NCBI GenBank assembly: GCA_964016885.1
Contig: CAXHJY010000184.1
Location: forward strand, 692,770-756,769
DNA length: 64,000 nt
Origin: Eledone cirrhosa
Lineage: Eukaryota
Direction: 5' to 3'
In this document: positions 8,940 to 48,955 of the stretch, piece by piece
How the letters are laid out: each line of letters begins with the position of its first letter
How positions within the stretch are numbered: the first letter of the stretch is position 1
Translations under genes and position numbers: made by a program
Notes under the pieces: model-generated
The model's input: only the letters and a program-made list of their open reading frames with translations
Database searches by the model: none
Told to the model about the DNA's origin: nothing

Positions 8940-8949
8940 TCAAAGAGCG

Positions 8950-10154: not shown

Positions 10155-10400
10155 ACTGTGTGTATGTGAATGTGATTGTGTGTGTGCACGTGAATGTGAT
10201 TGTGTGTGTGCACGTGAATGTGTGTGCGTGTGTGTGCACGTGAATGTGATTGTGTGTGTGTGCACGTGAATGTGATTGTGTGTGTGTGTGTGATTGTATG
10301 TGTGCACGTGAATGTGTGTGTGTGCACGTGAATGTGTGTGTGTGCACGTGAATGTGTGTGCACGTGAGTGAATGATTGTATGTGTGTGTATGTGAGTATG
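10155..10400. repeat. (TG)n-derived minisatellite carrying about 8 CACGTG motifs
   Basis: Repeated TGTGTGCACGTGAATG. Confidence 0.85.
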
Positions 10401-10914
10401 TGTGATTGTATGTAGGTAGGTGAAGGTGATGTCATCACCAAAATCTGAGTGGGATGTTCCATTAAATGTCTTCAGTTTTCTGTTATTAACAGACAGGTCT
10501 AAGGTGACCATGACACACATATGCTGTTAAATACAGAGTCATGCACATCACACATGATTTCTGTGAATGTTAGCTAACGATACAGAGAGAATAGAGAGGA
10601 GCACACTCAACAAAGAGGAGCAATGCCTGCCACATTACGTTTTCACTCCTCCTCCTGGCAAACCAATATATTTCACTTTTCAGTTGGTTTCTATGCACAC
10701 TTCAGAATGGTTGCTAAGCATCTGCACCCTGTACACTGACAGAACACACAGCTTTGTCAAGTAGCAAGTCAACAAATAGATTGGTAGTGAGGGAACCACT
10801 CGTCGTGATGGTGAAAAGGCAGGTGCTCCCTTGCTACGGTCACCTACCCTACCACATCTAAACCCATCCTTCAGGGAACAGTTGACAAACAGTGAATAAA
10901 ACTGCCTAAACTCT

Positions 10915-11195
10915 AAAATCTATCTTAAGCCCGGAGGTTCATCTGGCTGGTGTTTATCCCACTTTCCTTGGTATTAAACAACTGAGAGAACTAGACTTCC
11001 TCCCCCCTGGACTGGACACCAGTCCATCGTAGGATTAAACCTTCAGTTATTGCTGGTACTCATTTTCAGCTGAGTATACTGGAGCAATGTGAAATAAAGT
11101 GTTTTACTCAAGAACACAACACACGACTCGGTTCAGGAATCAAACCCACAACATTATGATCTTAAGTTCAACACTAACCACGAAGCCATGCACCT
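10915..11195 (-). mobile_element. CORE-type SINE, tail type B
   Basis: Same head and CORE as 2043-2376 (CAGCTGAGTATACTGGAGCAATGTGAAATAAAGTGT on +), but with the GATGGACTGGTGTCCAGTCCAGGGGGG-type tail. Confidence 0.7.
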
Positions 11196-11465
11196 TCAGA
11201 AGAAGGAGAGAGAAAATCCTGGTCGGATGACATCAAAAGCTGGATAAGTCACAGCACCACAACCCTTCTACGCATGACAGAGAATAGGGACCTGGGGTGA
11301 CTGCTGACTGCAAAAACCTTTACAGTGGCACCCCAATTACTGGCGAACTTGATGATATATACACTAATGGATTTGTGCCATTAATAATGATGGCAATAGT
11401 ATTAAACTTATCTAATTCTTGGAGTCTAAGATTTTTATGCCATTTATACCGAGATTAAAAAAACT

Positions 11466-11780
11466 GAGGCACTCCGTTGGTTACGACGATAAGTGTTCCT
11501 GTTGATACGATCAACAGAACAGCCTACTCATGAAATTAATGTGCAAGTGGCTGAGCATTCCACAGACACGTGTACCCTTAATGTAGTTCTCAGGGATATT
11601 CAGCATGACATAGAATGTGACAAGGCTGGCCTTTCGAATTACAGGTACAACACATTTTTGCCAGCTGGGTGGACGTGAGCAACATGAAATAAAGTGTCTT
11701 GCTCAAGGACACAACACACCGCCGGGAATCAAACCGACAACCATACAATTATGAGCTGAATACCCTAACCACAAAGCTAC
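11466..11780 (-). mobile_element. CORE-type SINE, tail type C
   Basis: Shares GAAATAAAGTGTCTTGCTCAAGGACACAAC and the tRNA head with the other CORE SINEs. Distinct body GTGCAAGTGGCTGAGCATTCCACAGACACGTGTACCCTTAA. Confidence 0.72.
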
Positions 11781-11989
11781 AGGATTACTGGGTATATGAA
11801 CAATGATACTGGAAAATTGTGTCTTGATATTTTAATGGCTTGCATAAGGGTTATTGAAACACAGTAACAATATATACCATCATCGTTTAATGTCTAGTTT
11901 CCAAGCCAACCCTGCTATTTTATCATCTGAGAACTGGGCAAAAAATCCAAACCTTATTTACAAGACAGAGAATATAATTGAAAGAGAGA

Positions 11990-12455
11990 GATGATTGATG
12001 CTGGGTTTGAATTGTTGGAAATTGTAGTTAAAGGTTAGGGAAGTAAGAGAAGCTGGGAGAGTTACATAGATGAGATGTGAGAGGGAAGAAACTGGGAGAA
12101 GAGAGTTACATAGGCGAGATGTGAGAGGGAAGAAACTGGGAGAGAGTTAAATAGGTGAGATGTGAGAGGGGAGAAACTATGAGAAGAGAGTTACATAGGT
12201 GAGATGTGAGAGGGAAGAAACTATGAGAAGAGAGTTACATATGTGAGATGTGAGAGGGAAGAAACTATCAGAAGAGTTACATGGGTGAGATGTGAGAGGG
12301 AAGAAAACTGTCAGAAGAGAGTTACATAGTTGAGATGTGAGAGAGAAGAAAACTGTCAGAAGAGAGTTACATAAGTGAGATGTGAGAGAGAAGAAACTGG
12401 GAGAAGAGAATCTATGAATTTAAGTACTTCAACTGAAACTAGGTGAGACTTAGGA
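11990..12455 (-). mobile_element. Second CR1-group LINE 3' end with the same segment tandemly expanded
   Basis: Flanks (GATGATTGATG...TTGAATTGTTG...AAAGGTTAGG; CAACTG...AGGTGAGAC) are homologous to 8950-9715. About 8 copies of a ~42-bp GAGAGTTACATAGGTGAGATGTGAGAGGGAAGAAACT unit. Confidence 0.6.
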
Positions 12456-12722
12456 CTAAACAATTACCACCAGTTTTGTGGCCAAGTCAACACTGGTCAA
12501 GCTGATTTATGATCAAAGACCATCCAGTCCAGGAGGGCGATACCTCCTATATCATCTATCAGACAGGCTAATCCAAGACATTTTCAACATCTCAATTACC
12601 ATATTTGGATATACTTTACAAAAAAAAAAGAAAAAAAAGAAAAAGAAATTCACCGAGGGGAATCGAAAGCATGGTTAAATCATGTATTACTATTAGTATT
12701 ACTAATGCAGTAATACAATATA

Positions 12723-13200
12723 TCTATATATATAAAGTTGTAGTTCCTGTCTGTTTGTTCACAAACTCATATGGTTTTGGAGATAACCATATATATTCTG
12801 AAACCACACTGCCCAGAGTACTTGCATAAGTATATTTCATTTTAATCAAAGGGTTCCCCCGGGGCACAAACCCCCACCGAAAATTTTTTCCCTTCGATTT
12901 ATATGAAATTTAAACTATAGGCAAATTACAAGGTATGATGCCTATTCACAAAAGTTTTGAATTGATATTTTGAAAAAAATTATTTACAATAAACAAAATA
13001 AGAATAAGATTTAATAATGTAATTTTGATTTGATATATTACAAAAAATGTTTTCCAATTTTTCATGCCTTACATTTTACATTGAGTAATATTGAAATGCA
13101 GAGTTTTTCTCCATAAATTATATCACTGATTTAAAATCATTCATTTTTCTTACAAAAAAAAAATGAGTGAAACGCAGCAAGGCGCTGGTAATTCGGCTAG
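12723..13200 (+). mobile_element. Non-autonomous Helitron
   Basis: Starts TCTATATATATAAAG after an A. Ends with a short GC hairpin CAGCAAGGCGCTG followed by CTAG (13197-13200) before a T. No TSD. Confidence 0.65.
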
Positions 13201-13254
13201 TATAATATGAAGTCAAACTTTAGTACTGACTGAAAGAATATGATCACGAATACA

Positions 13255-13642
13255 AGCGTCCGAAATGGGCTTCCTCCAAAGGGTCTTTCAGCTACACACT
13301 CTATCAAGTAACATTATTTAGCTTGGAGATGAGAGAGTCACTCCAGGTAGAACTGCTACTACTCCAAATTGAGAGATCACAGCTCTGATACTATGGACAT
13401 GTGGTTAGAATGTCTCAGGAAAGAATTGCTGGACAGATTTTACAAGCAAAAGCAACTGACAAGAGACCCAGGGGTAGACCCCGAGCAAAATGGTTGGATT
13501 ACATCCATGAGTTTGGCTGGTTTTGCTTGGGAATCCAGCCGGCTCAGTTGGAGGAGGCTGTGTCTGACAGGACCCACTGGAAGGAGTGTTTGAAGACTTC
13601 ACCCCCACGACCCTCTCGGGAATAAGGTGAAGAAGATGATGA
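13255..13642 (+). mobile_element. RTE-like LINE 3' fragment (family B)
   Basis: Encodes YYGHVVRMSQERIAGQILQAK...RPRGRPRAKWLDYI and ends in GAAGAAGATGATGA. Related pieces at ~4870-4990 and 46085-47000. Confidence 0.75.
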
Positions 13643-14509
13643 CGAACTTATATAAGAGTTTCTGAAGATATAAACTAATGGCTTGACTAGAGCAAATCTT
13701 AACTACAGAAGAGGCAGCGAATTAGAGTTGTTAGAATGTCAGATAGAATGCTTTGCGGTATTCATTTCAGCTCTCTGAGTTCAAATCCTGTTGAGGTAAA
13801 CAAAAAAGTACCAGTCAAGTACTGGGGTCGATTTTTGCTCTATCTCTTTCTCACTTCCTTTCTGACACTCTTCTTTGAAAGAAATCTACTGTATTCAGAC
13901 CTGGAGAGGAGATGGGCTCTGCCAGGTTAAAAAAAAAAAAAAAAAAAAAAAAGCCCTAGACGCCATATTGAGATACGGCATCCTACGACTCCCTTAGAAG
14001 TCACGGATTCATACATACAACCTACAGAAGATATTGGTATATTCCTTACATTATTTACCTTCCATAACAATGGATGATGAATGTTCCTTAATGGCAGGCA
14101 ACTTTAATGAAGAATCTAAACACCAGTCACCATTTACATTGAGCAGACAACAGCAATGGTGCTGCACCCCCATTTCACAAATATGGGATCACAAAACATC
14201 ACAGGAGACAGCCAGAAGTTTCAAATCTTACTCCTAGTTTTTTGTAACCAAAACAAACAAGCAATGTACCAGTGGCTGTCATATATGAAGGGGCATGCAA
14301 TAGACCAGCATATATTGTAATATATATGAGGACAATTTTACTGTTATTTCTAGCTTGTCAAGTGACTATTTAGAGGTATTTCAATGGATCAGTGTTTGCG
14401 AGGTATACCATACATAGTATACCATACATAGTATACCATACATAGTATACCATACATAGTATACCATACATAGTATACCATACATAGTATACACAGGTAT
14501 ACTGTATAT

Positions 14510-17500
14510 CAGCAGTTGCCAACCTTTCGAACCTCACGGACCACTAATATGAATTTTTTTTTAAAGATAACACATGTAACATAATGACCAGAGAACTTCT
14601 ATTCTATTAAACAATACTGAAGTGTACCTGTGTCATATTGTCAATAGGTGATATATAGGTGTAACATAATGACCAGAGAACTTCTATTTTATTAAACAAT
14701 ACTGAAGTGTACCTGTGTCATATTGTCAATAGGTGATATATAGGTGTAACATAATGACCAGAGAACTTCTATTCTATTAAACAATACTGAAGTGTACCTG
14801 TGTCATATTGTCAATAGGTGATATATAGGTGTAACATAATGACCAGAGAACTTCTATTCTATTAAACAATACTGAAGTGTACCTGTGTCATATTGTCAAT
14901 AGGTGATATATAGGTGTAACATAATGACCAGAGAACTTCTATTCTATTAAACAATACTGAAGTGTACCTGTGTCATATTGTCAATAGGTGATATATAGGT
15001 GTAACATAATGACCAGAGAACTTCTATTCTATTAAACAATACTGAAGTGTACCTGTGTCATATTGTCAATAGGTGATATATAGGTGTAACATAATGACCA
15101 GAGAACTTCTATTCTATTAAACAATACTGAAGTGTACCTGTGTCATATTGTCAATAGGTGATATATAGGTGTAACATAATGACCAGAGAACTTCTATTTT
15201 ATTAAACAATACTGAAGTGTACCTGTGTCATATTGTCAATAGGTGATATATAGGTGTAACATAATGACCAGAGAACTTCTATTCTATTAAACAATACTGA
15301 AGTGTACCTGTGTCATATTGTCAATAGGTGATATATAGGTGTAACATAATGACCAGAGAACTTCTATTCTATTAAACAATACTGAAGTGTACCTGTGTCA
15401 TATTGTCAATAGGTGATATATAGGTGTAACATAATGACCAGAGAACTTCTATTTTATTAAACAATACTGAAGTGTACCTGTGTCATATTGTCAATAGGTG
15501 ATATATAGGTGTAACATAATGACCAGAGAACTTCTATTCTATTAAACAATACTGAAGTGTACCTGTGTCATATTGTCAATAGGTGATATATAGGTGTAAC
15601 ATAATGACCAGAGAACTTCTATTTTATTAAACAATACTGAAGTGTACCTGTGTCATATTGTCAATAGGTGATATATAGGTGTAACATAATGACCAGAGAA
15701 CTTCTATTCTATTAAACAATACTGAAGTGTACCTGTGTCATATTGTCAATAGGTGATATATAGGTGTAACATAATGACCAGAGAACTTCTATTCTATTAA
15801 ACAATACTGAAGTGTACCTCTGTCATATTGTCAATAGGTGATATATAGGTGTAACATAATGACCAGAGAACTTCTATTCTATTAAACAATACTGAAGTGT
15901 ACCTGTGTCATATTGTCAATAGGTGATATATAGGTGTAACATAATGACCAGAGAACTTCTATTCTATTAAACAATACTGAAGTGTACCTGTGTCATATTG
16001 TCAATAGGTGATATATAGGTGTAACATAATGACCAGAGAACTTCTATTTTATTAAACAATACTGAAGTGTACCTGTGTCATATTGTCAATAGGTGATATA
16101 TAGGTGTAACATAATGACCAGAGAACTTCTATTTTATTAAACAATACTGAAGTGTACCTGTGTCATATTGTCAATAGGTGATATATAGGTGTAACATAAT
16201 GACCAGAGAACTTCTATTCTATTAAAAAATACTGAAGTGTACCTGTGTCATATTGTCAATAGGTGATATATAGGTGTAACATAATGACCAGAGAACTTCT
16301 ATTCTGTTAAACAATACTGAAGTGTACCTGTGTCATATTGTCAATAGGTGATATATAGGTGTAACATAATGACCAGAGAACTTCTATTCTATTAAACAAT
16401 ACTGAAGTGTACCTGTGTCATATTGTCAATAGGTGATATATAGGTGTAACATAATGACCAGAGAACTTCTATTCTGTTAAACAATACTGAAGTGTACCTG
16501 TGTCATATTGTCAATAGGTGATATATAGGTGTAACATAATGACCAGAGAACTTCTATTCTATTAAACAATACTGAAGTGTACCTCTGTCATATTGTCAAT
16601 AGGTGATATATAGGTGTAACATAATGACCAGAGAACTTCTATTCTATTAAACAATACTGAAGTGTACCTGTGTCATATTGTCAATAGGTGATATATAGGT
16701 GTAACATAATGACCAGAGAACTTCTATTCTATTAAACAATACTGAAGTGTACCTCTGTCATATTGTCAATAGGTGATATATAGGTGTAACATAATGACCA
16801 GAGAACTTCTATTCTGTTAAACAATACTGAAGTGTACCTGTGTCATATTGTCAATAGGTGATATATAGGTGTAACATAATGACCAGAGAACTTCTATTCT
16901 GTTAAACAATACTGAAGTGTACCTGTGTCATATTGTCAATAGGTGATATATAGGTGTAACAATGACCAGAGAACTTCTATTCTATTAAACAATACTGAAG
17001 TGTACCTGTGTCATATTGTCAATAGGTGATATATAGGTGTAACATAATGACCAGAGAACTATTTTATTAAACAATACTGAAGTGTACCTGTGTCATATTG
17101 TCAATAGGTGATATATAGATGTAACATAATGACCAGAGAACTTCTATTTTATTAAACAATACTGAAGTGTACCTGTGTCATATTGTCAATAGATGATATA
17201 TAGGTGTAACATAATGACCAGAGAACTTCTATTTTATTAAACAATACTGAAGTGTACCTCTGTCATATTGTCAATAGGTGATATATAGGTGTAACATAAT
17301 GACCAGAGAACTTCTATTCTATTAAACAATACTGAAGTGTACCTGTGTCATATTGTCAATAGATGATATATAGGTGTAACATAATGACCAGAGAACTTCT
17401 ATTTTATTAAACAATACTGAAATGTACCTGTCATATTGTCAATAGGTGATATATAGGTGTAACATAATGACCAGAGAACTTCTATTCTATTAAACAATAC

Positions 17501-18213
17501 TGAAGTGTACCTGTGTCATATTGTCAATAGGTGATATATAGGTGTAACAATGACCAGAGAACTTCTATTCTATTAAACAATACTGAAGTGTACCTGTGTC
17601 ATATTGTCAATAGGTGATATATAGGTGTAACAATGACCAGAGAACTTCTATTCTATTAAACAATACTGAAGTGTACCTCTGTCATATTGTCAATAGGTGA
17701 TATATAGGTGTAACATAATGACCAGAGAACTTCTATTCTGTTAAACAATACTGAAGTGTACCTGTGTCATATTGTCAATAGGTGATATATAGGTGTAACA
17801 TAATGACCAGAGAACTTCTATTCTATTAAACAATACTGAAGTGTACCTGTGTCATATTGTCAATAGGTGATATATAGGTGTAACATAATGACCAGAGAAC
17901 TTCTATTCTGTTAAACAATACTGAAGTGTACCTGTGTCATATTGTCAATAGGTGATATATAGGTGTAACATAATGACCAGAGAACTATTCTATTAAACAA
18001 TACTGAAGTGTACCTGTGTCATATTGTCAATAGGTGATATATAGGTGTAAAATTCTTTCATGGATGTTAGTTCTTTACTGAGGAGAAACATTTTTTTATA
18101 TTTTAACCAAATATTTTTGTTTTATTATCAATAAAACATAAAAATTGCAAATAATGTCCAAAATTTTGTCTCGGACCGCCAGTGGTCCACGAACCACCGG
18201 TTGGCAACTACTG
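14510..18213. mobile_element. hAT-like MITE whose interior is an 85-bp satellite
   Basis: TIRs CAGCAGTTGCCAACC (14510) and GGTTGGCAACTACTG (ends 18213), with subterminal GGACCAC motifs. Flanks CTGTATAT and CCATATAT (6/8 match) look like a decayed 8-bp TSD. Confidence 0.75.
14576..18049. repeat. 85-bp tandem array (~41 copies)
   Basis: Unit GTAACATAATGACCAGAGAACTTCTATTCTATTAAACAATACTGAAGTGTACCTGTGTCATATTGTCAATAGGTGATATATAGGT, very homogeneous. Confidence 0.97.
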
Positions 18214-19053
18214 CCATATATGGTAGTTGTTAGAATATGTACAGACATGTATAGTAAACAGCAATACTCGCCACCTCACTCGTCACTACTCCACACCATC
18301 CCATTATCAGGTTGTTCACCAGGTAGATTTAATCAGCAATTTAAACAGGTAATAGAGACGTTAAGCAATGGATAAGACAATAATTCCTAACAAAGGTGTA
18401 TCAGACTGGTTCAATAGTTGCTGTCAGAATTTCTAAACCCCTTCCCCCTCTCACACACATCCCTCCCCCACTGACACACCCCTCACTCACCCCCTAACAC
18501 CAACTCTTTTTAGTTTTCAACAGCCACCATTACACACCAGTCTCCCTCTTTCAGAACTATTTAATTTTTTTACAGGCATAGTGCATCTAGGACTACATTA
18601 TCCAATGTGTTCTTTCTTTTCAAGACTAGGCTGGGATTTTAAGGATATTTGGCTGCTATTTCTAGCAAGTCCCCTCCTTCAGATTGAAGCTGTTGCAACA
18701 GGCCATAGGCAGATTTTAAGATTTGATTGCTATTTATAGCAGGTCTACCAACCATATTAATATCGTCCCCTCTCCTTCAGCTGTTACAACTTACCATAGG
18801 CTGAGATTTGGCTGTCATTTCTAGCAGGTCTACCAACTATTACAACTGGCCACACAGCTGAGGTTTGGCTGCTATTTCCAGCAGGTCTGCCAACTGGCTA
18901 TACAGCTCTGCTCTAATGGACATCTCCCCCTCTCGTCTTAATCAATAAAACTATTATGTTTTAAACTCTTAAAGCTTTTTTCTTCAATAGTTCTGATTAG
19001 TCACTGGCATATTTTATTTATTTTTTATATTGTTTTCCATTCAGCTCCTCCAT

Positions 19054-20388
19054 CCACCCCATTGGTAATACTATAGGTAAGATGTTGTGCTGATGGGTTT
19101 TGATCTTCCCCACCCCATTGGTAATACTATAGGTAGGATGTTGTGCTGATGGGTTTTGATCTTCCCCACCCCATTGGTAATACTATAGGTAAGATGTTGT
19201 GCTGATGGGTTTTGATCTTCCCCACCCCATTGGTAATACTATAGGTAAGATGTTGTGCTGATGGGTTTTGATCTTCCCCACCCCATTGGTAATACTATAG
19301 GTAAGATGTTGTGCTGATGGGTTTTGATCTTCCCCACCCCATTGGTAATACTATAGGTAGGATGTTGTGCTGATGGGTTTTGATCTTCCCCACCCCATTG
19401 GTAATACTATAGGTAAGATGTTGTGCTGATGGGTTTTGATCTTCCCCACCCCATTGGTAATACTATAGGTAGGATGTTGTGCTGATGGGTTTTGATCTTC
19501 CCCACCCCATTGGTAATACTATAGGTAAGATGTTGTGCTGATGGGTTTTGATCTTCCCCACCCCATTGGTAATACTATAGGTAGGATGTTGTGCTGATGG
19601 GTTTTGATCTTCCCCACCCCATTGGTAATACTATAGGTAAGATGTTGTGCTGATGGGTTTTGATCTTCCCCACCCCATTGGTAATACTATAGGTAGGATG
19701 TTGTGCTGATGGGTTTTGATCTTCCCCACCCCATTGGTAATACTATAGGTAAGATGTTGTGCTGATGGGTTTTGATCTTCCCCACCCCATTGGTAATACT
19801 ATAGGTAAGATGTTGTGCTGATGGGTTTTGATCTTCCCCACCCCATTGGTAATACTATAGGTAAGATGTTGTGCTGATGGGTTTTGATCTTCCCCACCCC
19901 ATTGGTAATACTATAGGTAGGATGTTGTGCTGATGGGTTTTGATCTTCCCCACCCCATTGGTAATACTATAGGTAAGATGTTGTGCTGATGGGTTTTGAT
20001 CTTCCCCACCCCATTGGTAATACTATAGGTAGGATGTTGTGCTGATGGGTTTTGATCTTCCCCACCCCATTGGTAATACTATAGGTAAGATGTTGTGCTG
20101 ATGGGTTTTGATCTTCCCCACCCCATTGGTAATACTATAGGTAGGATGTTGTGCTGATGGGTTTTGATCTTCCCCACCCCATTGGTAATACTATAGGTAG
20201 GATGTTGTGCTGATGGGTTTTGATCTTCCCCACCCCATTGGTAATACTATAGGTAGGATGTTGTGCTGATGGGTTTTGATCTTCCCCACCCCATTGGTAA
20301 TACTATAGGTAGGATGTTGTGCTGATGGGTTTTGATCTTCCCCACCCCATTGGTAATACTATAGGTAGGATGTTGTGCTGATGGGTTT
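19054..20388. repeat. 56-bp tandem array (~24 copies)
   Basis: Unit CCACCCCATTGGTAATACTATAGGTA[A/G]GATGTTGTGCTGATGGGTTTTGATCTTCC, with essentially one variable position. Confidence 0.97.
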
Positions 20389-20487
20389 TTATATGAAAGC
20401 CCTTTCTTTACCGTTAATTACTAAAATACTGGAGAAATGGATGGGACCTGTTTTGATCAAATGGAACTGTACAATAAATGGCTGTAA

Positions 20488-34938: not shown

Positions 34939-36122
34939 AAGAGGAGGGAGAGAGAGGGTGAAAGAGAGAGAAAGAGGGGTAAAGTGAAGAAAAGATATGA
35001 ATTAAGGAGTGTTATGTCAGTAGAAAAACAAATATACTTGAACTAAATAAGAAAACATTAGAAATAGAAACTACTTAGATAGGATTCATCATCACCGTTG
35101 TCATCATTATCACCACCACCATCATCAACACTGACATTACCACCACCACCGCCGCCATTCCATGCTTACATGGGTTGGACAGGTTCTTCTCAGCACAGCA
35201 TCTCTCTTCTTGTCACATTCCTTCGTCATCTCTGCCAGCCTTAGCAATTTGAGGTCAGCTCTCAACCTCTGCCCAGCTCTTTCTTGGTCTATTTCTACTG
35301 CGGTTTCCTTCCACTGGGATTTCCTGGCACTTCTTCACCCATCGATCATTGTCCAGGTGCATCACATGAGTCCATACCAACGGTCTCCTGCACCACACCA
35401 TCTTGGATTCCCCTTAAAGACAGCTTCTCCTTCAACTCATCCAAACCCTGCCTTTCTCTCATACATTGTTTGCGAGCCACAGTCATATATACAGTGTGGA
35501 GCTGGATGGCACCGCTATGAGTGGGACAGGCCAGTTGGCTGCACCGAACCCATCTCACAGCAGAACCCTAGTTTTGAAGCTGCGACCAATGCTACTATAT
35601 CTACTTGAATCTCCTACTCTGATTTAGCTTAAAATAACTTAACAGAAAACAAAAATGAATTCATTCTCACATCTGTTGGAGCTTCAGTATTAATTCTTCT
35701 TAACAGAAATATAACAATTAGTAAAGTATATAAGGTCGGAGTAAGAGCAGTTGTGGTAACGACAATACCTTATGTCCTCGGTATAAAAAAATCAAGGGTG
35801 ACAGCTGGTCTTCCACAAAAACATGTATGTTGACCCCAGTATTTTATTGAAATCCCAGTGGAGAGGACAGCCAAGAAAGGCCTGGGGAAAGGAGATGACG
35901 AAGGAACACGACTAGTGAAGACATGCTGTGCTCAGTAGGATCTGTCCAACCCATGCAAGCATGGGAAAACGGACATAAAAACGATGATTCCCCTGGAATG
36001 GTGAAAAGTAGAGCCGACCTTGGCATGATTTAAACACTGAACATAAGAGACAGTAATTAAATGCCATGAGAGATTTTGCCCGACGCTAATGATTCCACCA
36101 ATCCTCAATCCTTAACCCTTTA

Positions 36123-37903
36123 CCATTTACATTACTCTATATATACTACTGTATTTTCACAGTAAAGGCTTTACCTCACATAATATCTCATAACATTTAC
36201 ATTACTCTATATATACTACTGTATTTTCACAGTAAAGGCTTTACCTCACATAATATCTCACATAACATTTACATTACTCTATATATACTACTGTATTTTC
36301 ACAGTAAAGGCTTTACCTCACATAATATCTCACAACATTTACATTACTCTATATATACTATTATATTTTCACAGTAAAGGCTTTACCTCACATAATATCT
36401 CAACATTTACATTACTCTATATATACTATTGTATTTTCACAGTAAAGGCTTTACCTCACATAATATCTCACAACATTTACATTACTCTATATATACTATT
36501 ATATTTTCACAGTAAAGGCTTTACCTCACATAATATCTCACAACATTTACATTACTCTATATATACTATTATATTTTCACAGTAAAGGCTTTACCTCACA
36601 TAATATCTCACAACATTTACATTACTCTATATATACTATTATATTTTCACAGTAAAGTCTTTACCTCACATAATATCTCAACATTTACATTACTCTATAT
36701 ATACTATTATATTTTCACAGTAAAGTCTTTACCTCACATAATATCTCACAACATTTACATTACTCTATATATACTATTATATTTTCACAGTAAAGGCTTT
36801 ACCTCACATAATATCTCACAACATTTACATTACTCTATATATACTATTATATTTTCACAGTAAAGTCTTTACCTCACATAATATCTCAACATTTACATTA
36901 CTCTATATATACTATTATATTTTCACAGTAAAGGCTTTACCTCACATAATATCTCACAACATTTACATTACTCTATATATACTATTATATTTTCACAGTA
37001 AAGTCTTTACCTCACATAATATCTCAACATTTACATTACTCTATATATACTATTGTATTTTCACAGTAAAGGTTTTACCTCACATAATATCTCACATAAC
37101 ATTTACATTACTCTATATATACTATTGTATTTTCACAGTAGAGGCTTTACCTCACATAATATCTCACATAACATTTACATTACTCTATATATACTATTAT
37201 ATTTTCACAGTAAAGGCTTTACCTCACAACATTTACATTACTCTATATATACTATTATATTTTCACAGTAAAGGCTTTACCTCACATAATATCTCACAAC
37301 ATTTACATTACTCTATATATACTATTGTATTTTCACAGTCAAGGCTTTACCTCACATATCTCACATAACATTTACATTACTCTATATATACTATTATATT
37401 TTCACAGTAAAGGCTTTACCTCACATAATATCTCGCATAACATTTACATTACTCTATATATACTCTTGTATTTTCACAGTAAAGGCTTTACCTCACATAA
37501 CATTTACATTACTCTATATATACTATTGTATTTTCACAGTAAAGGCTTTACCTCACATAATATCTCATACCATTTACATTACTTTATATATACTATTATA
37601 TTTTCACAGTAAAGGCTTTACCTCACATATCTCACATAACATTTACATTACTCTATATATACTATTGTATTTTCACATTAAAGGCTTTACCTCACATAAT
37701 ATCTCACAACATTTACATTACTCTATATATACTATTGTATTTTCACAGTAAAGGCTTTACCTCACAACATTTACAGTACTCTATATATACTATTGGATTT
37801 TCACAGTAAAGGCTTTACCTCACATAATATCTCACAACATTTACATTACTCTATATATACTATTGTATTTTCACAGTAAAGGTTTTACCTCACATAACAT
37901 CTC
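36123..37903. repeat. ~70-bp tandem array (~26 copies) inside the MITE
   Basis: Unit ACATTTACATTACTCTATATATACTATTATATTTTCACAGTAAAGGCTTTACCTCACATAATATCTCACA. It resumes at 43499-43562 after the LINE. Confidence 0.95.
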
Positions 37904-38109
37904 GTATACGAGAGACGTGTTGACGTGTGTGAACAAGCTCGGCTACCGAGTTGGATTTACTTACTCAAAAGTGAGTTTTGATTTATTGTTTTTGTACTGT
38001 AATATACGTTAACCCCTTGCCTGGGTCGTCTGACTTTGAGTTTATTTATTCTCGCCCCTTTTTGGGGCGAATTTTACATTTAAAAATTGATTACGACAAA
38101 CTAATAGAA

Positions 38110-39835
38110 ATGGACGGAATTTTCACATCTCATCCTAACGAGAAAGCCACGCCCCCTAAGAAAGGTGATACAGAGAAGCTAGAAGCACAATGCTCTAAGT
38201 CTTCCCTCCTCACTTCTGCAAAAGAAACATGGAACACGGAATTAAAAGAAAAATTTGTAAAAATGGGTGAAAACCCAGAAAGTCACAAACGCAGACAAAA
38301 ACAACAATGACAATAACAGCACGACCAACAACAGCAATAGTCACAACACCAACCAAGAAAAAAAGGGAAAAAAATAACGATAACACCAAACAAAGCGAAC
38401 CCACTACTGTTGCCTCCTTTGCACAGGCGGTCCGAAAAACACAGACCTGCAAGCAACTGGACATTAAAACTCTGAGAGAAAAGATGAAGGAAGCAAAACA
38501 GTATGTAACTTTCAAAGAAGGAGGAGTCTTTACAATCACCTCCCCACAAGAAATCAAAAGAGACACGACACTAAGAACGATATCTTTCAGAACAATTTCC
38601 AACATAACAAGGAAACCAGCTCAATTATCCCAAAAAGAAATTGAGCTGGTCCTAAAAAATGTGTGGAGTGATATATCGTTCATACAAAAAGGGCCACTCT
38701 ATGGGAATATAATGGTGCTAATGAAGGATCAATTGACGGCCAGGAAATACTCTGTGGCGCCAATTGTTTCCAAGCTACACACATTTTTCCCCACATATTT
38801 AGGGAAAAGAACGCAAAAAATAAGAGTCTCCGGAATCCGGTCAAATGCATGCATTTCCTGGGTACTAACAGGATTTTTAGAAGACGAGGATGGAATCCTC
38901 TCAGTAGGAGAAGTCACCACAGACGTTTTCGGCGGTTTGAGCGTAGAGGTTCTGGTCCAAATGAGACCAGAACGAATAGCTAGAATACCACAGAGGGTGT
39001 CCCTCGATGGAGAAACATTTATATACATTTCAGCCGAGGGTAGGAGGCCCATATGTTACTACTGTTCAAGCAGGGGTCATCTAAGGGCTGCCTGTCCTCA
39101 ATTGACAAAAAGGCTCTTTTGCCTACACCCCACACACCACCACCGCCACCACCACCACTACAACAAAAACAACACAGAAAAATAACACAAGACACGGTCC
39201 CACCCAAAACAACTCCCAAAACACACACAAACACAACAAAACCCCAAAATACACCACTACCCGACAGCACGGACGAGGACCCAGCTGAAACGGCACCTAG
39301 TGACGAAGAGAGAGAACCCTTCCAACCTGTAAAAAGAAAAAAAAGAAAACACCACACGAACATAAACGAAACAAACACACAACCAACAAAAACAAAACAA
39401 ACAGAACAAACAAAATCCACCCCACCCCAAAACATAACACATACAACAAAACGCAAGCACACACAAGAACAAACAAACACAACACAAATAAAACAGTATA
39501 CATACATTAACACAAATAACAAAGAACTAGTAAAAACAATACACAAAGACCCTTCGGTGGAAACTGAAGGGCAATTCTTTGCAAGCGCGGCCAACAAACC
39601 GCATTTAAAAATGATAAGACTCCCAATGGACACCTATGCAAAACTAAGAGAGAACTTTCCTGAGGACATGGGGAAAACATGTACTCGACCCTATAACCGC
39701 GTCCTCTTCAAACGTTTCCCCACCCACACCTCACCAAACACCCCCACCCCACCACAGAACAACACCCCACCAAACAACCCCTCCAATACGCCCATGGATA
39801 TTGTGCAACCTGCTCCTCAGGAGCCGAACAGGTAG
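38110..39835 (+). pseudogene. Tx1-like ORF1 (gag-like, zinc knuckle), two apparent frameshifts
   Basis: ATG at 38110 (MDGIFTSHP...) joins the frames of ORFs 38307-39185 (CYYCSSRGHLRAAC = CX2CX4HX4C) and 39053-39835 (P/T/K-rich tail). The frame joins are inferred. Confidence 0.8.
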
Positions 39836-39856
39836 GTCCTTCCTCTTTTAACCAAC

Positions 39857-42800
39857 ATGGCTGATATAAGAGTTGGGTGTCTGAATGTACGCGGCCTGGG
39901 ACTGTCTTGGAAACAAGGCAAACTTTTAAACGATCTCAGGTCGCATAGAATGGATGTAATGGCTATTTGCGAGTCCAGGATCAGCAGCGAGCGCCAACTG
40001 GCGCCCCTCTTCGACGACTTTGAGATCTTCGCATCTCTCTGTCAACCGGGGGGTGGGGGTGGAGTTGTCGTTCTGCTGCGAAAACACCTGGGCCTCGCCA
40101 TACAGAAGGTGCACCTGGACCCGGAGGGTCGACTGGTGGTTTTAGTGAAAGTGGAGCCCTTAGACTAATTGTTGTGTACGCCCCTTTTGGGGCAGCGCGG
40201 TCGGACTACTTCCAACGTCTGGAAACTTTTCTGGGAACGTCCCGCTCCTTGCTTTTAGTGGGGGACTGGAATGGTATCCTGGATGCACGTTGGGACTATG
40301 TAGGGGCATGTGCCAATAGAGGGGGGTGTAAAAGCCTCAAAAGGTTAATCGGCCGATTTGACCTGGCCGATAGATATCGACTAGATTTTCCGACTGTACC
40401 ACTATGGACGTGGACCAATCGCAGCGGAACATCTAGGTCGTACCTAGATAGGGTCCTAGTTAGAGATAAGGATAGGGACACATTTAGCTGTCCAAAAATG
40501 TTCATGGTTGACTATTCGGATCACAAGTTAGTGACCTGCATAGTCAACCTTGATAGAACCCATAGACAGGGACCCGGTTACTGGAAGCTGAACTTGTCCT
40601 TACCGACAAGCAAAGCTTACAGTAAACGGATTAGCACGTTAATTAAGCAGAGTTTGACAGGGGCAATTGTCAACAACAGGTGGTGGAGCTCTCTTAAGAG
40701 AGCAATTAGAATAGAATCGATAGGTTTTAGTCAGGAATTAGCAAGGGATAGGAACAAGATGGAAAGGGAATTAGTAGATAGAGTAGAAGAGGCGATTAGG
40801 AGTGGAAATGTAGCCGACGTGCTGGCATCAAGAATGGCCTTAGACCAGTTCTTTGAGGTGAAGCATGAAGGCTGCGTTGTCAGGAGTAAAATACGTGCTC
40901 TGGGTAATGAGGGAGCCAAAGCTGTTAGCTGGGCCCGAGTGACAGGCAAAAAGTGGGAACAAGTCCACGATTCGGTCTTTGAAGGATCGGAATGGGCGTG
41001 TGATCCTTGAACCTGGGCAGATGTGTGCAGCCTTTCAGCGGCACTTTGCACGACTGTTCGAGAGGGGTGGCGCGCCGGGTGAGACTATGGATTTCAATCC
41101 GTACCTCGACGGTCTGCCACGCCTCTCGGACGCGGAGGCGAAGTCCTGCGAAAGGCCGATTTCAGCTGCTGAGATAGGGGCGGCGCTGAGCCAATGCGGC
41201 AAACGCAAATACCCGGGTCTCGATGGTCTACCATACGAGCTATATGTAGCGATGCCGGACTTGTTCTCCGATATCCTCGAAGCGGTCTACTGCAACTGGC
41301 AGCAGAATGGGAGAATTCCCAGTTCTGTGACCAAGGGCGTAGTTACGCTGGTGAGGAAGGATGAGAACAAGGGGGATGGCATAAGTAACTTCAGGCCCAT
41401 AACTCTGCTAAATACAGAGTTAAAGATTTTGGCCAAGGTGTTAGCGAAGAGGTTGGCGCTTGTCATCAGAAACCTGGTGGGAGAAGCGCAGACATGCGCA
41501 ATCCCGTCCAGGTCCATTCACGACAATCTCCACCTTATGCGTTACATCATAGAGAGGGTAGGGAATGAACCCGGCTTTGGTGGGGCCCTGATCAACTTGG
41601 ATCAATCTAAAGCTTTCGATAGGGTTGACCATCGTTACCTGGATGCGGTGCTTGCGGCGGCAGGCTTCGGACCCGTTTTCAGGGGTTGGATTGCTGCGAT
41701 GCACAGCAGCAACGTCTGCTCAAGGGTCAAGGTGAACGGCCACCTCTCGGAGCCGTTCCAAATCATGCGATCCCCTCTCTCCTCCCTTCTGTATGTGCTG
41801 GCTCTTGAGCCACTACTGCGGAAGTTGGAGCGGTTGCAGGGCATCCCTTTGGAACCGGGATTGCAGAAAGCGGCGTCGGCCTACGCCGATGACATGACAG
41901 TAATGGTGTCGAGAACCTCGCAAATCGGTGAGATCGGCAGCTTACTGGAGGAATATGAAAGGTTTACAGGAGCCAAGCTGAACCGGGACAAGTCCGTCGG
42001 TTTGCAACTCGGAACATGGAGAGGCAAACCGATGCCCTCCAACGACGTCGGACGCTGGACGGAGGGCCCGGTGAAGCTGCTTGGGATCTGGTTCGGACCA
42101 GACCTCCAGATGGAGAAAAACTGGAACGAGGTAACGGCCAGGGTGTTTGCACTCACCCAGAAGTGGGCCCAGTGCAAACTATCCCTGAAAGGTCGAGCGG
42201 AGGTGGCGAATACTTATATAGCATCCGTCATCTACTACCGCTTGACCGTCGTGCTTTGCCCAGTGAAAAGACTCGCCAAAATGGAGTGCGCGCTGTTCCA
42301 ATTTCTTTGGAACAAGCGGACCCCTTTGGTGAGGAGATCCATCTGCTGTCAACACCCTTTGAAAGGAGGGTTGGGGATGCCGTGGCTACAGATGCGTAAA
42401 CACGCATTAAGGCTACGGCACCTCCAGGTATTCCTCACCAGTCAACCGGTGTGGTCCCCGTTTGTGAGGCGAGCCTTTCCCAGACTCGTCTCGCTCACCG
42501 AGCTGCAATCCTGAGTCAAGCAAAGACCGAGAAAAGCGGGCGACTGGCACATTGCGTGTGCCCAGGCGCTCACGGCCCTCTGGAAAGCGGACCCAGCAAT
42601 CAGTGGAGACTCCACCTCGACATTCTATAGAGGGTTGGTACGCAACAGGTGCGACGATGCTCTCAGAGAAGCTCTAGGCATGGAGGAAGATGAACTGTCC
42701 AGTCTGTTCGGTAGGACGTTTGGCCCTGGACCGATGGACAACTTCCAAAAGTCCCTGGCTTGGCAGTGCTACCGAGGGGCTCTACCCGTTCGAGACAAGC

Positions 42801-43261
42801 TCCACAGGCATGGGAGCCTGGGTAGGGATCCTTTGAGTAAGATCTGTCCGAGATGCGTGCATGACGCCGAAACCGTTGCGCACGCATTCGTACACTGCCC
42901 AGGCATTGCTGACCTGTGGGGCTATGTGGAACGACTACTGTCGAGGGTGGGACCAATCCGGTTGACCACTGAGTCCATTGTCACGATCAAACCGCCTCCC
43001 CCTTTCAAAAACGAAGGAGAGGCGGTTTTTCTCTGTGTTATAGCCATGGCTAAAGAAGTTGTATGGTGGACGAGGCTGAAAGGGCTGAGGTCAGACACCT
43101 TTCTCTCCGGCCAACAACTGGTCCCCTTTTTCAAATACCATTTTAAAAGAAGGATCAGAATGGAGAGAGAGGTGCTCTACCCCAGCAAGTTTTATGAATG
43201 GTGAGTGAAAGTAGGGAGAATGGCCAGAGTGAATGGGTCTTCTCTCTATATCAGCCTGTAG
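39857..43261 (+). pseudogene. Tx1-like ORF2 (AP endonuclease, reverse transcriptase, CCHC finger), disrupted
   Basis: APE: VGCLNVRGL, GDWN, SYLDRV, SDHK, GYWKLN. RT: PGLDGLP, FRPITLLN, LDQSKAFDRVDH, YADD. Finger: CPRC...ETVAHAFVHC. Frameshifts near 40150 and 40960, in-frame TGA at 42512 and 43202, and the QG motif is missing before PLS. Confidence 0.9.
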
Positions 43262-44268
43262 GTGAAAGAAGAGGAAAAAGAGGAGACGAGGGAAGCACCT
43301 ACTCTTTGTGCTCCTGAGGAGAAGGGTTCCACATTTTTTCCGGGGTGTGTGCGACCCATGTTAATGCCCCCTCCCTATTGAGGACTTCGTTTGTTGTTGT
43401 TATTTCATTGTTATATTTTTGTACTCGTTAATTATATGTAAACTTCCCCCCTTGTATCTGTCCCTACCTTTTGTGCCCTAGTGGCAAATAAAGAAACCAC
43501 TCTATATATACTATTGGATTTTCACAGTAAAGGCTTTACCTCACATAATATCTCACATAATATCGAATCTGAGATTTTGATATTTATTTTGAGAACAATA
43601 CCTTAAAGTCGTAGGAAGGGAAAGTTATAGTCAGTTTGAACAGAAAAAGATGAGAAAATTCTGGCCGGATATGGCCGGTTTAAATGCTAAAGGGTTAAGG
43701 AACATTAATAAAGATTCGATCCTACAACACACAATGAACACAAACACACACAAGTAGTTGGGGAAATTAATGTAAAATTTGATTGTATAAAAATACATCA
43801 TTTTTAATACAAAGAAAGTATTTCTCTATTAATAAAATTCTTATCCAAGTCTCAGAGATGATTGGTAGATCATTAGGATTGTTATACGATGATAGCTTTT
43901 ACTGGACTGTGATCAAGTGCCCCACAAACTTGACTGATTCTTGGCATGATGTCAGCAACTGATTACAATTACAATCACGGGCTACCATGGCAACTAGTAT
44001 ACATAATAGATTACATTACTTATTGTTTAGCCACATGTCTGTTTTAGGTGAGTTTACTTATGATGAAAGGTCTTCCAATCATCATGTCCTCTTTTCAGGC
44101 GTTGCATACCTGTCTATCTGTCGATCTCTCTGCCCGTCCGTCTGTCAATCTGTGTCTGTATATTTTTATTGTTTAAGATGCTAAGATGCACTTTGAAGGA
44201 AATTTGGCTGCTATTTTTAGAAGCCATGTAGCAGCTTCCTCGATTCTTTAGTGAAAGGTATAGCTTAA

Positions 44269-44594
44269 CTCTTTAGTATTTAAACTGGCGCATCTGGCCA
44301 GATTTCTCTCACTTCTATCTCTTCAAACCAGCCACTCATACTGATGTTAAGGTATTGTTCTCAAAATAAATATCAAAATCTCAGATTCGATATTATGTAA
44401 CAAAGCCTTTACCGTGAAAATACAATAGTAAATATAGAGTAATGTAAATGTTGTGAGATATGTGAGGTAAAGCCTTTACTGTGATAATACAATAGTATAT
44501 ATAGAGTAATGTAAATATTTAAGATATTATGTGAGGTAAAGCCTTTACTGTGATAATACAATAGTATATATAGAGTAATGTAAATGGTAAAGGG
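44269..44594. mobile_element. Short sister copy of the piggyBac-like MITE (inverted, ~3 repeat units)
   Basis: TTAA at 44265-44268 and 44595-44598. Ends CTCTTTAGTATTTA and TAAATGGTAAAGGG. Contains the reverse complements of the 70-bp unit and of 43560-43605. Confidence 0.85.
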
Positions 44595-44924
44595 TTAAAG
44601 ATTGTGAAACCTTTACAATATTTGTCATTTGAAAAAGACAATGGTAGCAACAGGTCCACAAAACAGACATACAATTATCAACCTAGTATTCTACCTGTTG
44701 CCTTTTCTATCTCAAATTCTTTTTTATAATGTCTAAGGTAGTCAGGGGAAACTGGCTTGTTTGGCTTTCTGAGTGGCACACCTAATTAAAAATTACATTA
44801 AATATTTTTAGTAGTGTTGCCTGCCTTGTGATGAGGCATATGTCATGCGACCCTCAATCTGCTACTGGTACCATGTAACCCAGTACAACTTGTTTCAGGG
44901 TCGAGTGATCGGCAACTAAACTAT

Positions 44925-45770: not shown

Positions 45771-46101
45771 CTACTTCTTTCACGGGACCCTAGACACTCG
45801 TTTGCACGGAACCCACTTTGGGAACCACTGGCTTAGGGGTTAAGGTATTAATCTGATGGTTGTTAAGGTCATGGCTTGTGCACTGTATCCTTGAGCAAAG
45901 TATTTCAGTTTACGTTGCTCTAGTTCGTTCTCTTGATAAAATAAAAAATACCACCAACAAAAGCTGGGGTCGGGGGGGGGGGGGGTCAGGTTAAAGTTTC
46001 TTAACACCACATGTCATACATTAGCTCTGGTTTGTTGAGCCCTAGGTTCAAGACAGACTAACTTTAATTTTTAACTAAATTTCAGATTAATAATCTTTCG
46101 A

Positions 46102-46810
46102 GAGATCACAGCTCTGATACTACAGACATGTGGTTAGAATGTCTCAGGAAAGAATCTCTGGATTAAGAGATCACAGCTCTGATACTACAGACATGTGGTT
46201 AGAATGTCTCAGGAAAGAATCTCTGGATTAAGAGATCACAGCTCTGATACTACAGACATGTGGTTAGAATGTCCCAGGAAAGAATCTCTGGATTAAGAGA
46301 TCACAGCTCTGATACTACAGACATGTGGTTAGAATGTCTCAGGAAAGAATCTCTGAATTGAGAGATCACAGCTCCGATACTACAGACGTGTGGTTAGAAT
46401 GTCTCAGGAAAGAATCTCTGGATTGAGAGATCACAGCTCTGATACTACAGACATGTGGTTAGAATGTCTCAGGAAAGAATCTCTGGATTAAGAGATCACA
46501 GCTCTGATACTACAGACATGTGGTTAGAATGTCTCAGGAAAGAATCTCTGGATTAAGAGATCACAGCTCTGATACTACAGACATGTGGTTAGAATGTCTC
46601 AGGAAAGAATCTCTGAATTGAGAGATCACAGCTCTGATACTACAGACATGTGGTTAGAATGTCTCAGGAAAGAATCTCTGGATTAAGAGATCACAGCTCT
46701 GATACTACAGACATGTGGTTAGAATGTCTCAGGAAAGAATCTCTGAATTGAGAGATCACAGCTCTGATACTACAGACATGTGGTTAGAATGTCTCAGGAA
46801 AGAATTGCTG
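46102..46810 (+). repeat. 65-bp tandem array (~11 copies) derived from RTE family B coding sequence
   Basis: Unit GAGATCACAGCTCTGATACTACAGACATGTGGTTAGAATGTCTCAGGAAAGAATCTCTGGATTAA matches 13373-13432. The last copy continues into the RTE 3' end up to ~47000. Confidence 0.9.
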
Positions 46811-47761
46811 GACAGATTTTACTGGCAAGACCAACCAGCAGGAGACCCAGATGTAGACCCCAAGCAAGATAGTTGGATAACATCCATGAGCTAGTCTGGT
46901 CTCGCTTGGGGATCCTGCTGGATCAGTTGAAGACTTGCTGGAAGGAGTGTTTGAGGACTCTGCCCCCATGACCCTCGCAAGAATCAGTGGAAGAATAAAA
47001 AGAGTATTTTATGATTTTGTGTTGATATGTGTTGTTATTTAGCCGAAGGTCAGACCTAATCAAGCAGACCTCTGATCAAAGACATCCAACAACAGCTTGA
47101 GCAAGGATTTTTTTTAAAATTCATTCATCAGAAGCGATGACACAGGACCGTGACCTCTGGCGTCACGCAGTTATACAGAAGACCCGACTTCCCACAGGAA
47201 CAAGCCGAAGCTGAAGCATATAGACAATATATTAAACCCTGACATTTGAACATTATTCTATATACTATACATGCACCTTTGATGAGGTGTAGTGCACCTA
47301 AGCACTACACAATTTCATTATTATTTTACTATTTTATAAATTTATACAGAAACCATTAATAATAATAATAATTAGTATTATTATTTGTTGGACAATGTTT
47401 TGTGGCATATAATTACAGCCCTTCACATTCTGAGTTCAAATGCCACAAGGTTAGCTTTGCTTTCATCCTTACGGGGCCGATAAAATGAAATATCAGTAAT
47501 GCTCTGGGGGTCCATTTAATCGACTTTCCCCTCCTCCAAAATTGTTGGCCTTGTGCCTATATCAGAAACCATTGTTATTATTGATCATTTTGTTTACTAT
47601 GTTATCTAATTGGTTGAATATACAAGCCTGGCCTGACTATTTCCACATTTACAGCACTTCAGTTATGGTAGGTGTTATATATATATATATATATTTGCAG
47701 CACTTCAGTTATGGTAGGTGTGTTATATATATATATATATATCTCACTTCAGATATGGTAG

Positions 47762-47793
<32 letters not shown>

Positions 47794-47799
47794 CTCATT

Positions 47800-48955
47800 T
47801 GGAACACCCACAAAATTATTAACTATCTTGCTAACAACAAACCTGAGCACCTTTTTGATGTGTCTAACACACATGGGCATGCCTACAAAGTCAGAAAACA
47901 GTACAGTTCCCATGACTTTCGGAAACATTTTTCACACTCAGAGTTGCTGAAGCATGGAACAAACTACCTGCATCAGTTGTTAGCTGTCCAGACACTGCAT
48001 CCTTTAAAACGTCCATGGAACAAACTACCTGCATCAGTTGTTAGCTGTCTAGACACTGCATCCTTTAAAACCCCCATGGTATGAACTACCTGCATCAGTT
48101 ATTAGCTGTCAAGACATTGCATCCTTTAAAACCCCCATGGAACAAACTACCTGCATCAGTTATTAGCTGTCTAGACACTGCATCCTTTAAAACCTCCATG
48201 GAACAAACTACCTGCATCAGTTATTAGCTGTCAAGACATTGCATCCTTTAAAACTTCCATGGAACAAACTATCTGCATCAGTTATTAGCTGTCAAGACAC
48301 TGCATCCTTTAAAACCTCCATGGAACAAACAACCTGCATCAGTTGTTAGCTGTCAAGACACTGCATCCTTTAAAACCTCCATGGAACAAACTCCCTGCAT
48401 CAGTTGTTAGCTGTCGAGACACTGCATCCTTTAAAACGTCCATGGAACAAACTACCTGTATCAGTTGTTAGCTGTCTAGACACTGCATCCTTTAAAACCC
48501 CCATGGTACAAACTACCTGCATCAGTTATTAGCTGTCGAGACACTGCATCCTTTAAAACTTCCATGGACCAAACTATCTGCATCAGTTGTTAGCTGTCCA
48601 GACACTGCATCTTTTAAAACCTCCATGGAACAAACTACCTTCATCAGTTGTTAGCTGTCGAGACACTGCATCCTTTAAAACTTCCATGGAACAAACTATC
48701 TGCATCAGTTGTTAGCTGTCCAGACACTGCATCCTTTAAAACTTCCATGGAACAAACTACCTGCATCAGTTATTAGCTGTCCAGACACTGCATCTTTTAA
48801 AACCTCCATGGAACAAACTCCCTGCATCAGTTGTTAGCTGTCGAGACACTGCATCCTTTAAAACTTCCATGGAACAAACTACCTGCATCAGTTGTTAGCT
48901 GGCGTGACACTGCATCCTTTAAAACTTCCATGCTTCCTGAGATTTGCTAACACTG
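47800..48955 (+). mobile_element. CR1-clade LINE 3' fragment containing a 61-bp array (~16 copies, 47953-48932)
   Basis: HGHAYKVRKQYSSHDFRKHF...WNKLPASVVSCLDTASFK matches the CR1 ORF2 C-terminus, and the WNKLPASVVSC.DTASFK segment is the repeat unit. 3' UTR pieces of this family at ~21220-21445(-) and 51440-51655(+). Confidence 0.8.

What the first reader, a model, noticed from the sequence alone, without database searches (positions are those of the whole stretch)
36112..44598. Three-layer composite: Tx1-like LINE inside a tandem array inside a piggyBac-like MITE, with an unexpanded sister MITE alongside
Seen: TTAA-flanked 14-bp TIRs enclose ~26 copies of a 70-bp unit, and a 5.6-kb L1/Tx1-type element interrupts the array one unit before its end. 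An inverted 326-bp copy of the same MITE with only ~3 units lies ~570 bp downstream and shows the likely ancestral state. Known: Tx1-group elements are often target-specific, and Xenopus Tx1L sits in internal tandem repeats of the DNA element Tx1D. Inference: this may be an invertebrate parallel, a LINE that targets a MITE-borne satellite and could be carried by piggyBac transposase. Caveat: no clean TSD. The junctions (...CATCTC | element | ACTCTATAT...) imply a ~14-bp target loss or an imperfect long duplication.
Basis: partly seen in the sequence, partly recalled or inferred. Interest (0 to 1): 0.75.

Follow-up and report, generated by a model that had tools for sequence, protein, structure and literature searches.

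The report
Retrotransposon carrying its own landing sequence
A young jumping gene, probably from an octopus relative, sits at one exact base of a short tandem repeat inside another, older transposon in every copy examined, likely helped by a piece of that repeat carried on its own RNA; similar arrangements are known from frogs, crocodiles and flies, so this is a clean new example and not a new principle.

Summary
The nested anatomy is real and the targeting is strict. 248 of 275 exact 3' ends and 295 of 310 exact 5' ends of this LINE family join the 72-bp unit at one fixed position; all 101 copies fetched by their 3' end share it. Full-length copies lack 7 bp of target (not ~14). Truncated copies mostly have 1-13-bp duplications (7 of 10). 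The ~25 bp before full-length copies lose array-local variants (0 of 16 loci keep them), so the RNA likely carries a target-derived leader that anneals to the site, as proposed for Drosophila R1A. The MITE shares ends with an intact piggyBac, but carriage by transposase is not supported: host MITEs differ by 18%, LINEs by 1.3%, uncorrelated. The three-unit sister is not the ancestral state; 19 of 30 MITEs have one unit. A sister LINE family with 84% identical ORF2 targets (TCTG)n instead. Closest known: Xenopus Tx1L in Tx1D. This scan already reported the family on other DNA (e1-8671301, e1-9516603). New variant of a known kind.

The parts
36112..36129 (+). TTAA target duplication and left 14-bp TIR of the host MITE
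   Evidence: 17 of 18 bases shared with one end of an autonomous piggyBac
36124..37900 (+). Tandem array, 26 units of 57-72 bp, expanded from a segment that most MITE copies hold once
37890..37900 (+). Target-like 5' leader (short variant in this copy; 23 bp exact in 89 of 96 full-length copies), likely element-supplied
37901..43498 (+). Full-length LINE copy of family A; 14-bp palindrome at 37900-37913; AATAAA at 43487-43492; no poly(A) tail; 127 substitutions and 14 indels against intact copy L122
38110..39835 (+). ORF1, one weak CCHC zinc knuckle; frameshifted here, 580 aa in intact L122
39857..43261 (+). ORF2 (APE endonuclease, RT, zf-RVT); broken here by frameshifts, an in-frame deletion in RT and two stops; 1,145 aa in intact L122
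43499..43562 (+). Terminal unit, starting at the fixed insertion point ACTCTAT
43563..43698 (+). MITE body, right TIR (43681-43694) and TTAA
44265..44598 (-). Inverted second MITE copy, 326 bp between TTAAs, 3 units, no LINE; shares two small indels with the host body

Best explanation
This is a broken full-length copy of a young LINE family whose copies sit at one fixed base (TTACATT|ACTCT) of a 72-bp repeat inside older piggyBac-related MITEs, likely placed there one by one by target-primed reverse transcription from a sequence-specific nick, with an RNA that likely begins about 25-30 nt upstream in the repeat. Step 1 (shown): the MITE, about 228 bp with one unit in most copies, spread first, and in some copies the unit expanded. 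Step 2 (inferred): the APE endonuclease nicks the bottom strand at the fixed site and RT copies the RNA from there. Step 3 (inferred): if RT reaches the 5' end, the copied leader anneals to the matching upstream unit, overwrites its last ~25 bp and leaves the constant 7-bp loss. If RT stops early there is no leader, and joining uses a top-strand end 1-13 bp downstream, giving a short duplication. Each full-length insertion thus recreates the leader for the next round. The composite is copied further only passively, by tandem and segmental duplication.
For: Fixed site: 248 of 275 exact 3' ends; the 14 exceptions among the first 100 are point variants at the same site; 295 of 310 5' ends; 60 of 60 and 41 of 41 fetched copies. 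Independent arrival: 30 composites have MITE bodies 18% apart and LINEs 1.3% apart, Mantel r 0.01, p 0.49, with unrelated outer flanks and unit counts. Junction dichotomy: every copy with a 5' end has the -7 junction; 7 of 10 truncated copies have 1-13-bp duplications. Leader: 23-mer exact in 89 of 96 full-length copies, 2 of 7 duplication-bearing truncated copies (p 1.7e-4) and 328 of 760 empty sites. Array-local variants are kept at unit positions 18-30 (24 of 38 columns) but lost at 43-65 (0 of 55 columns; 0 of 16 loci for 41-65), while the downstream unit keeps them (47 of 54). L200/L201 lie in a different 43-bp satellite and carry two foreign 72-bp units at their 5' end. Activity: both ORFs intact in 28 of 96 full-length copies. 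The same pattern is described for melanogaster-type R1A (PMC2718515 passages).
Against: No RNA evidence for the start site and no nicking assay. Only 10 truncated copies: one (L125) has the -7 junction and two (L179, L189) are unresolved. Samples were drawn by exact patterns, so they favour young copies. Informative columns are not independent (deletions count many columns; L196/L197 share one array; L200/L201 may be one event). The homogenised stretch could also come from a sequence-specific top-strand cut at -7 that needs a consensus upstream unit. No ribozyme family matched the 5' end, so how the RNA start is set is unexplained.
Confidence: 0.72

Rival explanations
1. No leader on the RNA: the enzyme cuts the top strand 7 bp upstream in a sequence-specific way, and only units with a perfect upstream 23-mer accept full-length insertions.
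For: L125 is truncated yet has the -7 junction. R1A is proposed to cut at -9 as well as downstream.
Against: L200/L201 carry foreign 72-bp units into a 43-bp satellite. Truncated copies use sites without the 23-mer, including a single-unit MITE (L129). Selection over 8-30 bp from the nick only for full-length products is hard to obtain.
Confidence: 0.13
2. Full-length copies spread at the DNA level, by gene conversion or unequal exchange between similar arrays (homing-like), so the junctions are inherited.
For: About 90% of sampled copies keep the 5' end (91 of 101). Head-to-tail clusters of 5-6 copies 0.03-0.6% apart exist, two with identical 281-bp spacers.
Against: Homogenisation is one-sided: the 3' flank varies like empty units. 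Truncated copies with target duplications show true retrotransposition.
Confidence: 0.08
3. One reading: LINE-bearing MITEs were moved as a unit by piggyBac transposase.
For: A piggyBac of about 2.57 kb with intact 561-aa frames and matching TIRs is present; many composites keep both TIRs.
Against: LINE pairs 0.1-0.2% apart sit in MITE bodies 15-28% apart. Among 100 loci the only set with long shared arrays on both sides at separate places (L202-L204, with L230) shares about 10 kb beyond the TIRs, a segmental duplication.
Confidence: 0.05

Closest known systems
Xenopus laevis Tx1L in Tx1D (PMC4494074 and PMC1950540 passages; primary paper PMC85248 not held)
   Same: APE-type LINE at one site inside a non-autonomous piggyBac element.
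   Different: Invertebrate host. Full-length copies show a 7-bp loss and a target-like leader; I recall a 23-bp duplication for Tx1L (from no call). No Tx1L sequence was available, so shared descent of the targeting was not tested.
Crocodilian Tx1-Mar (Mariner-N4_AMi), Tx1-9_AMi (Harbinger); Kibi/Koshi and (TTCC)n/(TTTC)n families (PMC4494074 section 15 and passages)
   Same: Tx1 families that target DNA transposons or microsatellites; switches of target class within the clade.
   Different: Those are described as preferences; here the site is fixed to the base, and the two target classes are split between families with 84% identical ORF2.
Drosophila melanogaster-type R1A (PMC2718515 passages) and R2 with upstream 28S leader (PMC3774820 abstract)
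   Same: Precise target deletion in full-length copies, duplications in truncated copies, upstream target sequence on the RNA proposed to anneal.
   Different: Other clades, rDNA target, -9 instead of -7; R2 sets its 5' end with an HDV-like ribozyme, and none was detected here.

Membership tests
Tx1 clade (L1 group) non-LTR retrotransposons | Two ORFs; ORF2 with APE endonuclease, RT and C-terminal zinc motif | tested here: met
Tx1 clade (L1 group) non-LTR retrotransposons | RT phylogeny inside the Tx1 clade with named reference elements | tested here: inconclusive
   ORF2 scores 295-326 bits against four proteins named after Tx1 ORF2 and 184 against human L1 ORF2p. The 36-row tree lacks Tx1L, Keno, Kibi and an L1 outgroup; the family lies on a separate branch with an Argonauta protein.
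Tx1 clade (L1 group) non-LTR retrotransposons | Target preference (over 20% of flanks in one repeat type, criterion in PMC4494074) | tested here: met
   248 of 275 and 295 of 310 exact junctions
Tx1 clade (L1 group) non-LTR retrotransposons | Endonuclease nicks the target sequence-specifically | not testable with these tools
   needs an in vitro assay
piggyBac non-autonomous element (MITE) | TTAA duplication and CCC...GGG terminal inverted repeats | tested here: met
piggyBac non-autonomous element (MITE) | Ends shared with a transposase-coding piggyBac | tested here: met
   20 of 30 PF13843 loci have TTAA-CCCTTTAGC at both ends; 17 of 18 bases match at one end and 68-69% over 147 bp at the other
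Tx1C-like composite moved by transposase | Identical LINE-bearing MITEs at different TTAA sites | tested here: not met
   none among 30 complete composites or 100 loci compared by flank; sample only, not genome-wide
R1A/R2-type leader-guided 5' joining (works like; not a member) | Uniform full-length 5' junction, variable truncated junctions, upstream target carried to foreign sites | tested here: met
R1A/R2-type leader-guided 5' joining (works like; not a member) | Leader shown on the RNA; self-cleaving ribozyme | tested here: inconclusive
   no Rfam match at the 5' end; no RNA data

The most novel reading that the evidence does not exclude
The LINE maintains its own niche: by writing a consensus leader, and sometimes whole 72-bp units, into every site it enters, it homogenises, extends and occasionally seeds the satellite it needs. 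Its 5' UTR has adapted to base-pair with that leader, and a few endonuclease-loop changes plus a new leader were enough to switch between a (TCTG)n and a MITE-satellite target.
Probability: 0.2. Interest if true: 0.7.

Novelty: new variant of a known kind. Interest (0 to 1): 0.45.

Why it matters
Two young families with intact copies, 84% identical ORF2 and different strict targets make a natural experiment on how APE-type LINE specificity changes: three fixed differences lie in the hairpin loop that was grafted in L1 endonuclease work. About 90% of sampled copies are full-length with a precise 5' junction, a property sought in retrotransposon-based gene insertion. The variable array records how far the leader overwrites the target, which a uniform rDNA target cannot show. 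The principle (LINE inside a piggyBac repeat; leader-guided joining) is already described in other animals.

Tried and rejected
Long (65-bp) target duplication: rejected. Piggyback carriage by transposase: not found. L040/L229, where only 23 bp of target precede the element, first looked like proof of the leader; the array resumes about 1 kb upstream in register, so it is a later insertion and was not used. L202-L204/L230 first looked like a moved composite or a leader-linked subfamily; they are segmental duplicates, and three were dropped before the counts, as was L201. Rfam search for a 5' ribozyme: nothing at either family's 5' end. Folding: leader plus 5' UTR forms a hairpin pairing both CACAT sub-repeats (z -2.6, window chosen after seeing it); family B shows no such signal; a hint only. 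Expression: no RNA holder listed; three contig runs were laid and add nothing on RNA ends. Higher divergence of the endonuclease than of RT between A and B (22% against 12%) is not taken as evidence of selection. A rooted tree with Tx1L could not be built. The scan's sequence look-up returned nothing. No structure or complex job was run.

Full report
Observation. The window is G000:C211:692770-756769 of a 3.0-Gb genome. The nearest named relative of the LINE protein is from Argonauta hians (64% over 672 aa), so the host is probably an octopod (inference). A TTAA-flanked element with 14-bp TIRs spans 36112-43698. It holds 26 tandem units of 57-72 bp, a 5,598-bp LINE at 37901-43498, one terminal unit and a body of about 130 bp. 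An inverted 326-bp copy with three units lies 567 bp further on. The LINE copy is broken; an intact relative, L122, encodes a 580-aa ORF1 and a 1,145-aa ORF2 with APE, RT and zf-RVT domains.

Targeting. The 30 best 3'-end and 30 best 5'-end loci, each set including this copy, all join the unit at one position. The 3' query touched the junction, so I repeated the test with element-internal patterns. 248 of 275 exact 3' ends continue GAAACC|ACTCTAT, and the 14 exceptions among the first 100 listed are point variants at the same site. 295 of 310 5' ends are preceded by CACATAACAT. All 101 copies fetched by their 3' end and 8 fetched by their 5' end agree. The genome has 34,726 exact empty internal sites and 10,870 exact MITE left ends, so under 1% of sites are filled. 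These samples favour young copies because they were drawn by exact patterns.

Junctions. The empty site reads CATAACAT-TTACATT-ACTCTAT. All 91 of 101 copies that keep their 5' end lack the middle 7 bp. This is not a 65-bp duplication: the first 40 bp of the two flanking units are identical in 18 of 82 loci (14 skipped for indels), no more than ordinary neighbours (19 of 56, 20 of 51). Of 10 truncated copies, 7 have duplications of 1-13 bp, one has the -7 junction and two are unresolved (read by eye). So the 3' nick position is fixed and the 5' outcome depends on whether the copy is complete.

Leader. The 23 bp before the element are the exact common sequence in 89 of 96 full-length copies (four duplicates dropped), in 328 of 760 empty sites of the same arrays, and in 2 of 7 duplication-bearing truncated copies (p 1.7e-4). 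Where an array has its own variant, the unit before the element keeps it at positions 18-30 (24 of 38 columns) and loses it at 31-42 (2 of 12) and 43-65 (0 of 55); the unit after the element keeps it throughout (31 of 36, 10 of 12, 47 of 54). By locus, 0 of 16 keep a variant at positions 41-65. Two copies at the start of C20 sit in a 43-bp satellite and bring two 72-bp units with them; they may be one event. The simplest reading is an RNA that starts about 25-30 nt, sometimes further, inside the repeat, and whose cDNA anneals to the target and overwrites it (inference). Stage and Eickbush's account of melanogaster-type R1A has the same signs: a precise 9-bp loss in full-length copies, duplications in all truncated ones, and upstream target carried to foreign sites (PMC2718515, passages; author names recalled). 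R2 elements with upstream 28S leaders also have uniform 5' junctions (PMC3774820, abstract). No ribozyme was found here. The leader can pair with two GTGTG tracts of the 5' UTR, a weak post-hoc hint.

The MITE and its transposase. 19 of the first 30 MITE left ends on C1 have a single unit; the complete ones among them are 213-229 bp. The three-unit neighbour is therefore already expanded. It is no closer to the host over the whole body (83%) than other copies are (81-91%), but both share two small indels found together in 0 of 103 other bodies, which suggests a local conversion or a rare subfamily. A piggyBac of about 2.57 kb with intact 561-aa frames has matching ends, so the piggyBac label holds.

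Carriage by transposase. In 30 complete full-length composites the MITE bodies differ by 18% on average (minimum 5%) and the LINEs by 1.3%, with no correlation (Mantel r 0.01, p 0.49); outer flanks and unit counts differ. Among 100 loci the only separate places with the same arrays on both sides share about 10 kb beyond the TIRs. The LINE entered old MITEs independently. Head-to-tail clusters of six and five copies, 0.03-0.6% apart, probably mix repeated insertion and tandem duplication. Only one of 96 full-length copies (L095) could have entered a single-unit MITE, so arrays, not the MITE as such, are the usual home.

A sister family with another target. The shared 3' pattern has 503 hits; 16 of the first 30 belong to family B, which has 209 exact 3' ends. 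B is 78% identical in DNA over 5.1 kb and 84% in ORF2. Its 26 3' junctions continue into (TCTG)n-like repeats, with GTCT at positions 3-6 in 24-26 of 26 per position, and its 23 5' junctions end in TCT-type repeats even in TG-rich tracts, which fits a leader of its own. Both targets show W-S-T-C-T just after the junction. Three fixed differences (T191S, R193N, T196Q) lie in the stretch aligned to the L1 endonuclease hairpin loop, a loop shown by grafting to affect nicking (PMC1950540, passages). The direction of the switch is unknown.

Comparison and novelty. Tx1L in the non-autonomous piggyBac Tx1D, crocodilian Tx1-Mar and microsatellite-targeting Tx1 families are described (PMC4494074, passages and section 15). 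ORF2 scores higher against Tx1-named proteins (295-326 bits) than against human L1 (184), but the tree has no reference Tx1 elements, so clade membership is likely, not shown. Seven paper searches (listings only, apart from the papers named) did not show this family. An Octopus vulgaris repeat annotation lists 13 recently active L1-Tx1 families; its passages on Tx1 and piggyBac are counts only (PMC13282606), and its supplements and Repbase were not seen and may hold these elements. Earlier notes of this scan reached the same reading on other DNA; they are not independent evidence. Verdict: real, well-defined, a new variant of a known kind; targeting about 0.97, leader mechanism about 0.72, transposase carriage about 0.05; interest 0.45.

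Noticed in passing
G000 C1-C4, e.g. L151-L170, L226-L228: Sister LINE family B (209 exact 3' ends, 84% identical ORF2) inserts into (TCTG)n-like microsatellites and forms head-to-tail clusters; 5 of 19 fetched copies have an intact ORF2.
   Followed up: partly
G000:C20:1-16000 (L200, L201, L299-L301): A 43-bp satellite built from the MITE's left end (TIR plus unit start) fills the contig start and holds two family A copies with two foreign 72-bp units each.
   Followed up: partly
G000 C1-C3: Listed family A copies lie within about 31 Mb of the contig ends, whereas family B and the MITE also occupy the interior.
   Followed up: no
window 43563-43610 and 44340-44390: Host and inverted neighbour MITE are 96% alike over 48 bp with two shared indels but 74% over the rest: possible local conversion.
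   Followed up: partly
L263-L270 and other PF13843 loci: Young-looking autonomous piggyBac family, about 2.57 kb, 561-aa frame, near-identical ends among copies.
   Followed up: partly
L162:787-858: Hammerhead HH9-like match (39 bits, below the gathering score) in the flank of a family B copy.
   Followed up: no
L292, L294, L296 (G000:C20 3.48-3.87 Mb): Segmental duplication of at least 26 kb in three near-identical copies plus an older fourth; its MITE's last unit holds a SINE-like insert with a duplication of about 21 bp.
   Followed up: no
window 35160-35232 and 35892-35964: Two inverted, 82% alike copies of a short dispersed repeat just upstream of the MITE.
   Followed up: no
window 6905-20389, 46101-48932: Many further minisatellites (periods 29, 41, 44, 56, 61, 65, 77, 85 bp).
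   Followed up: no
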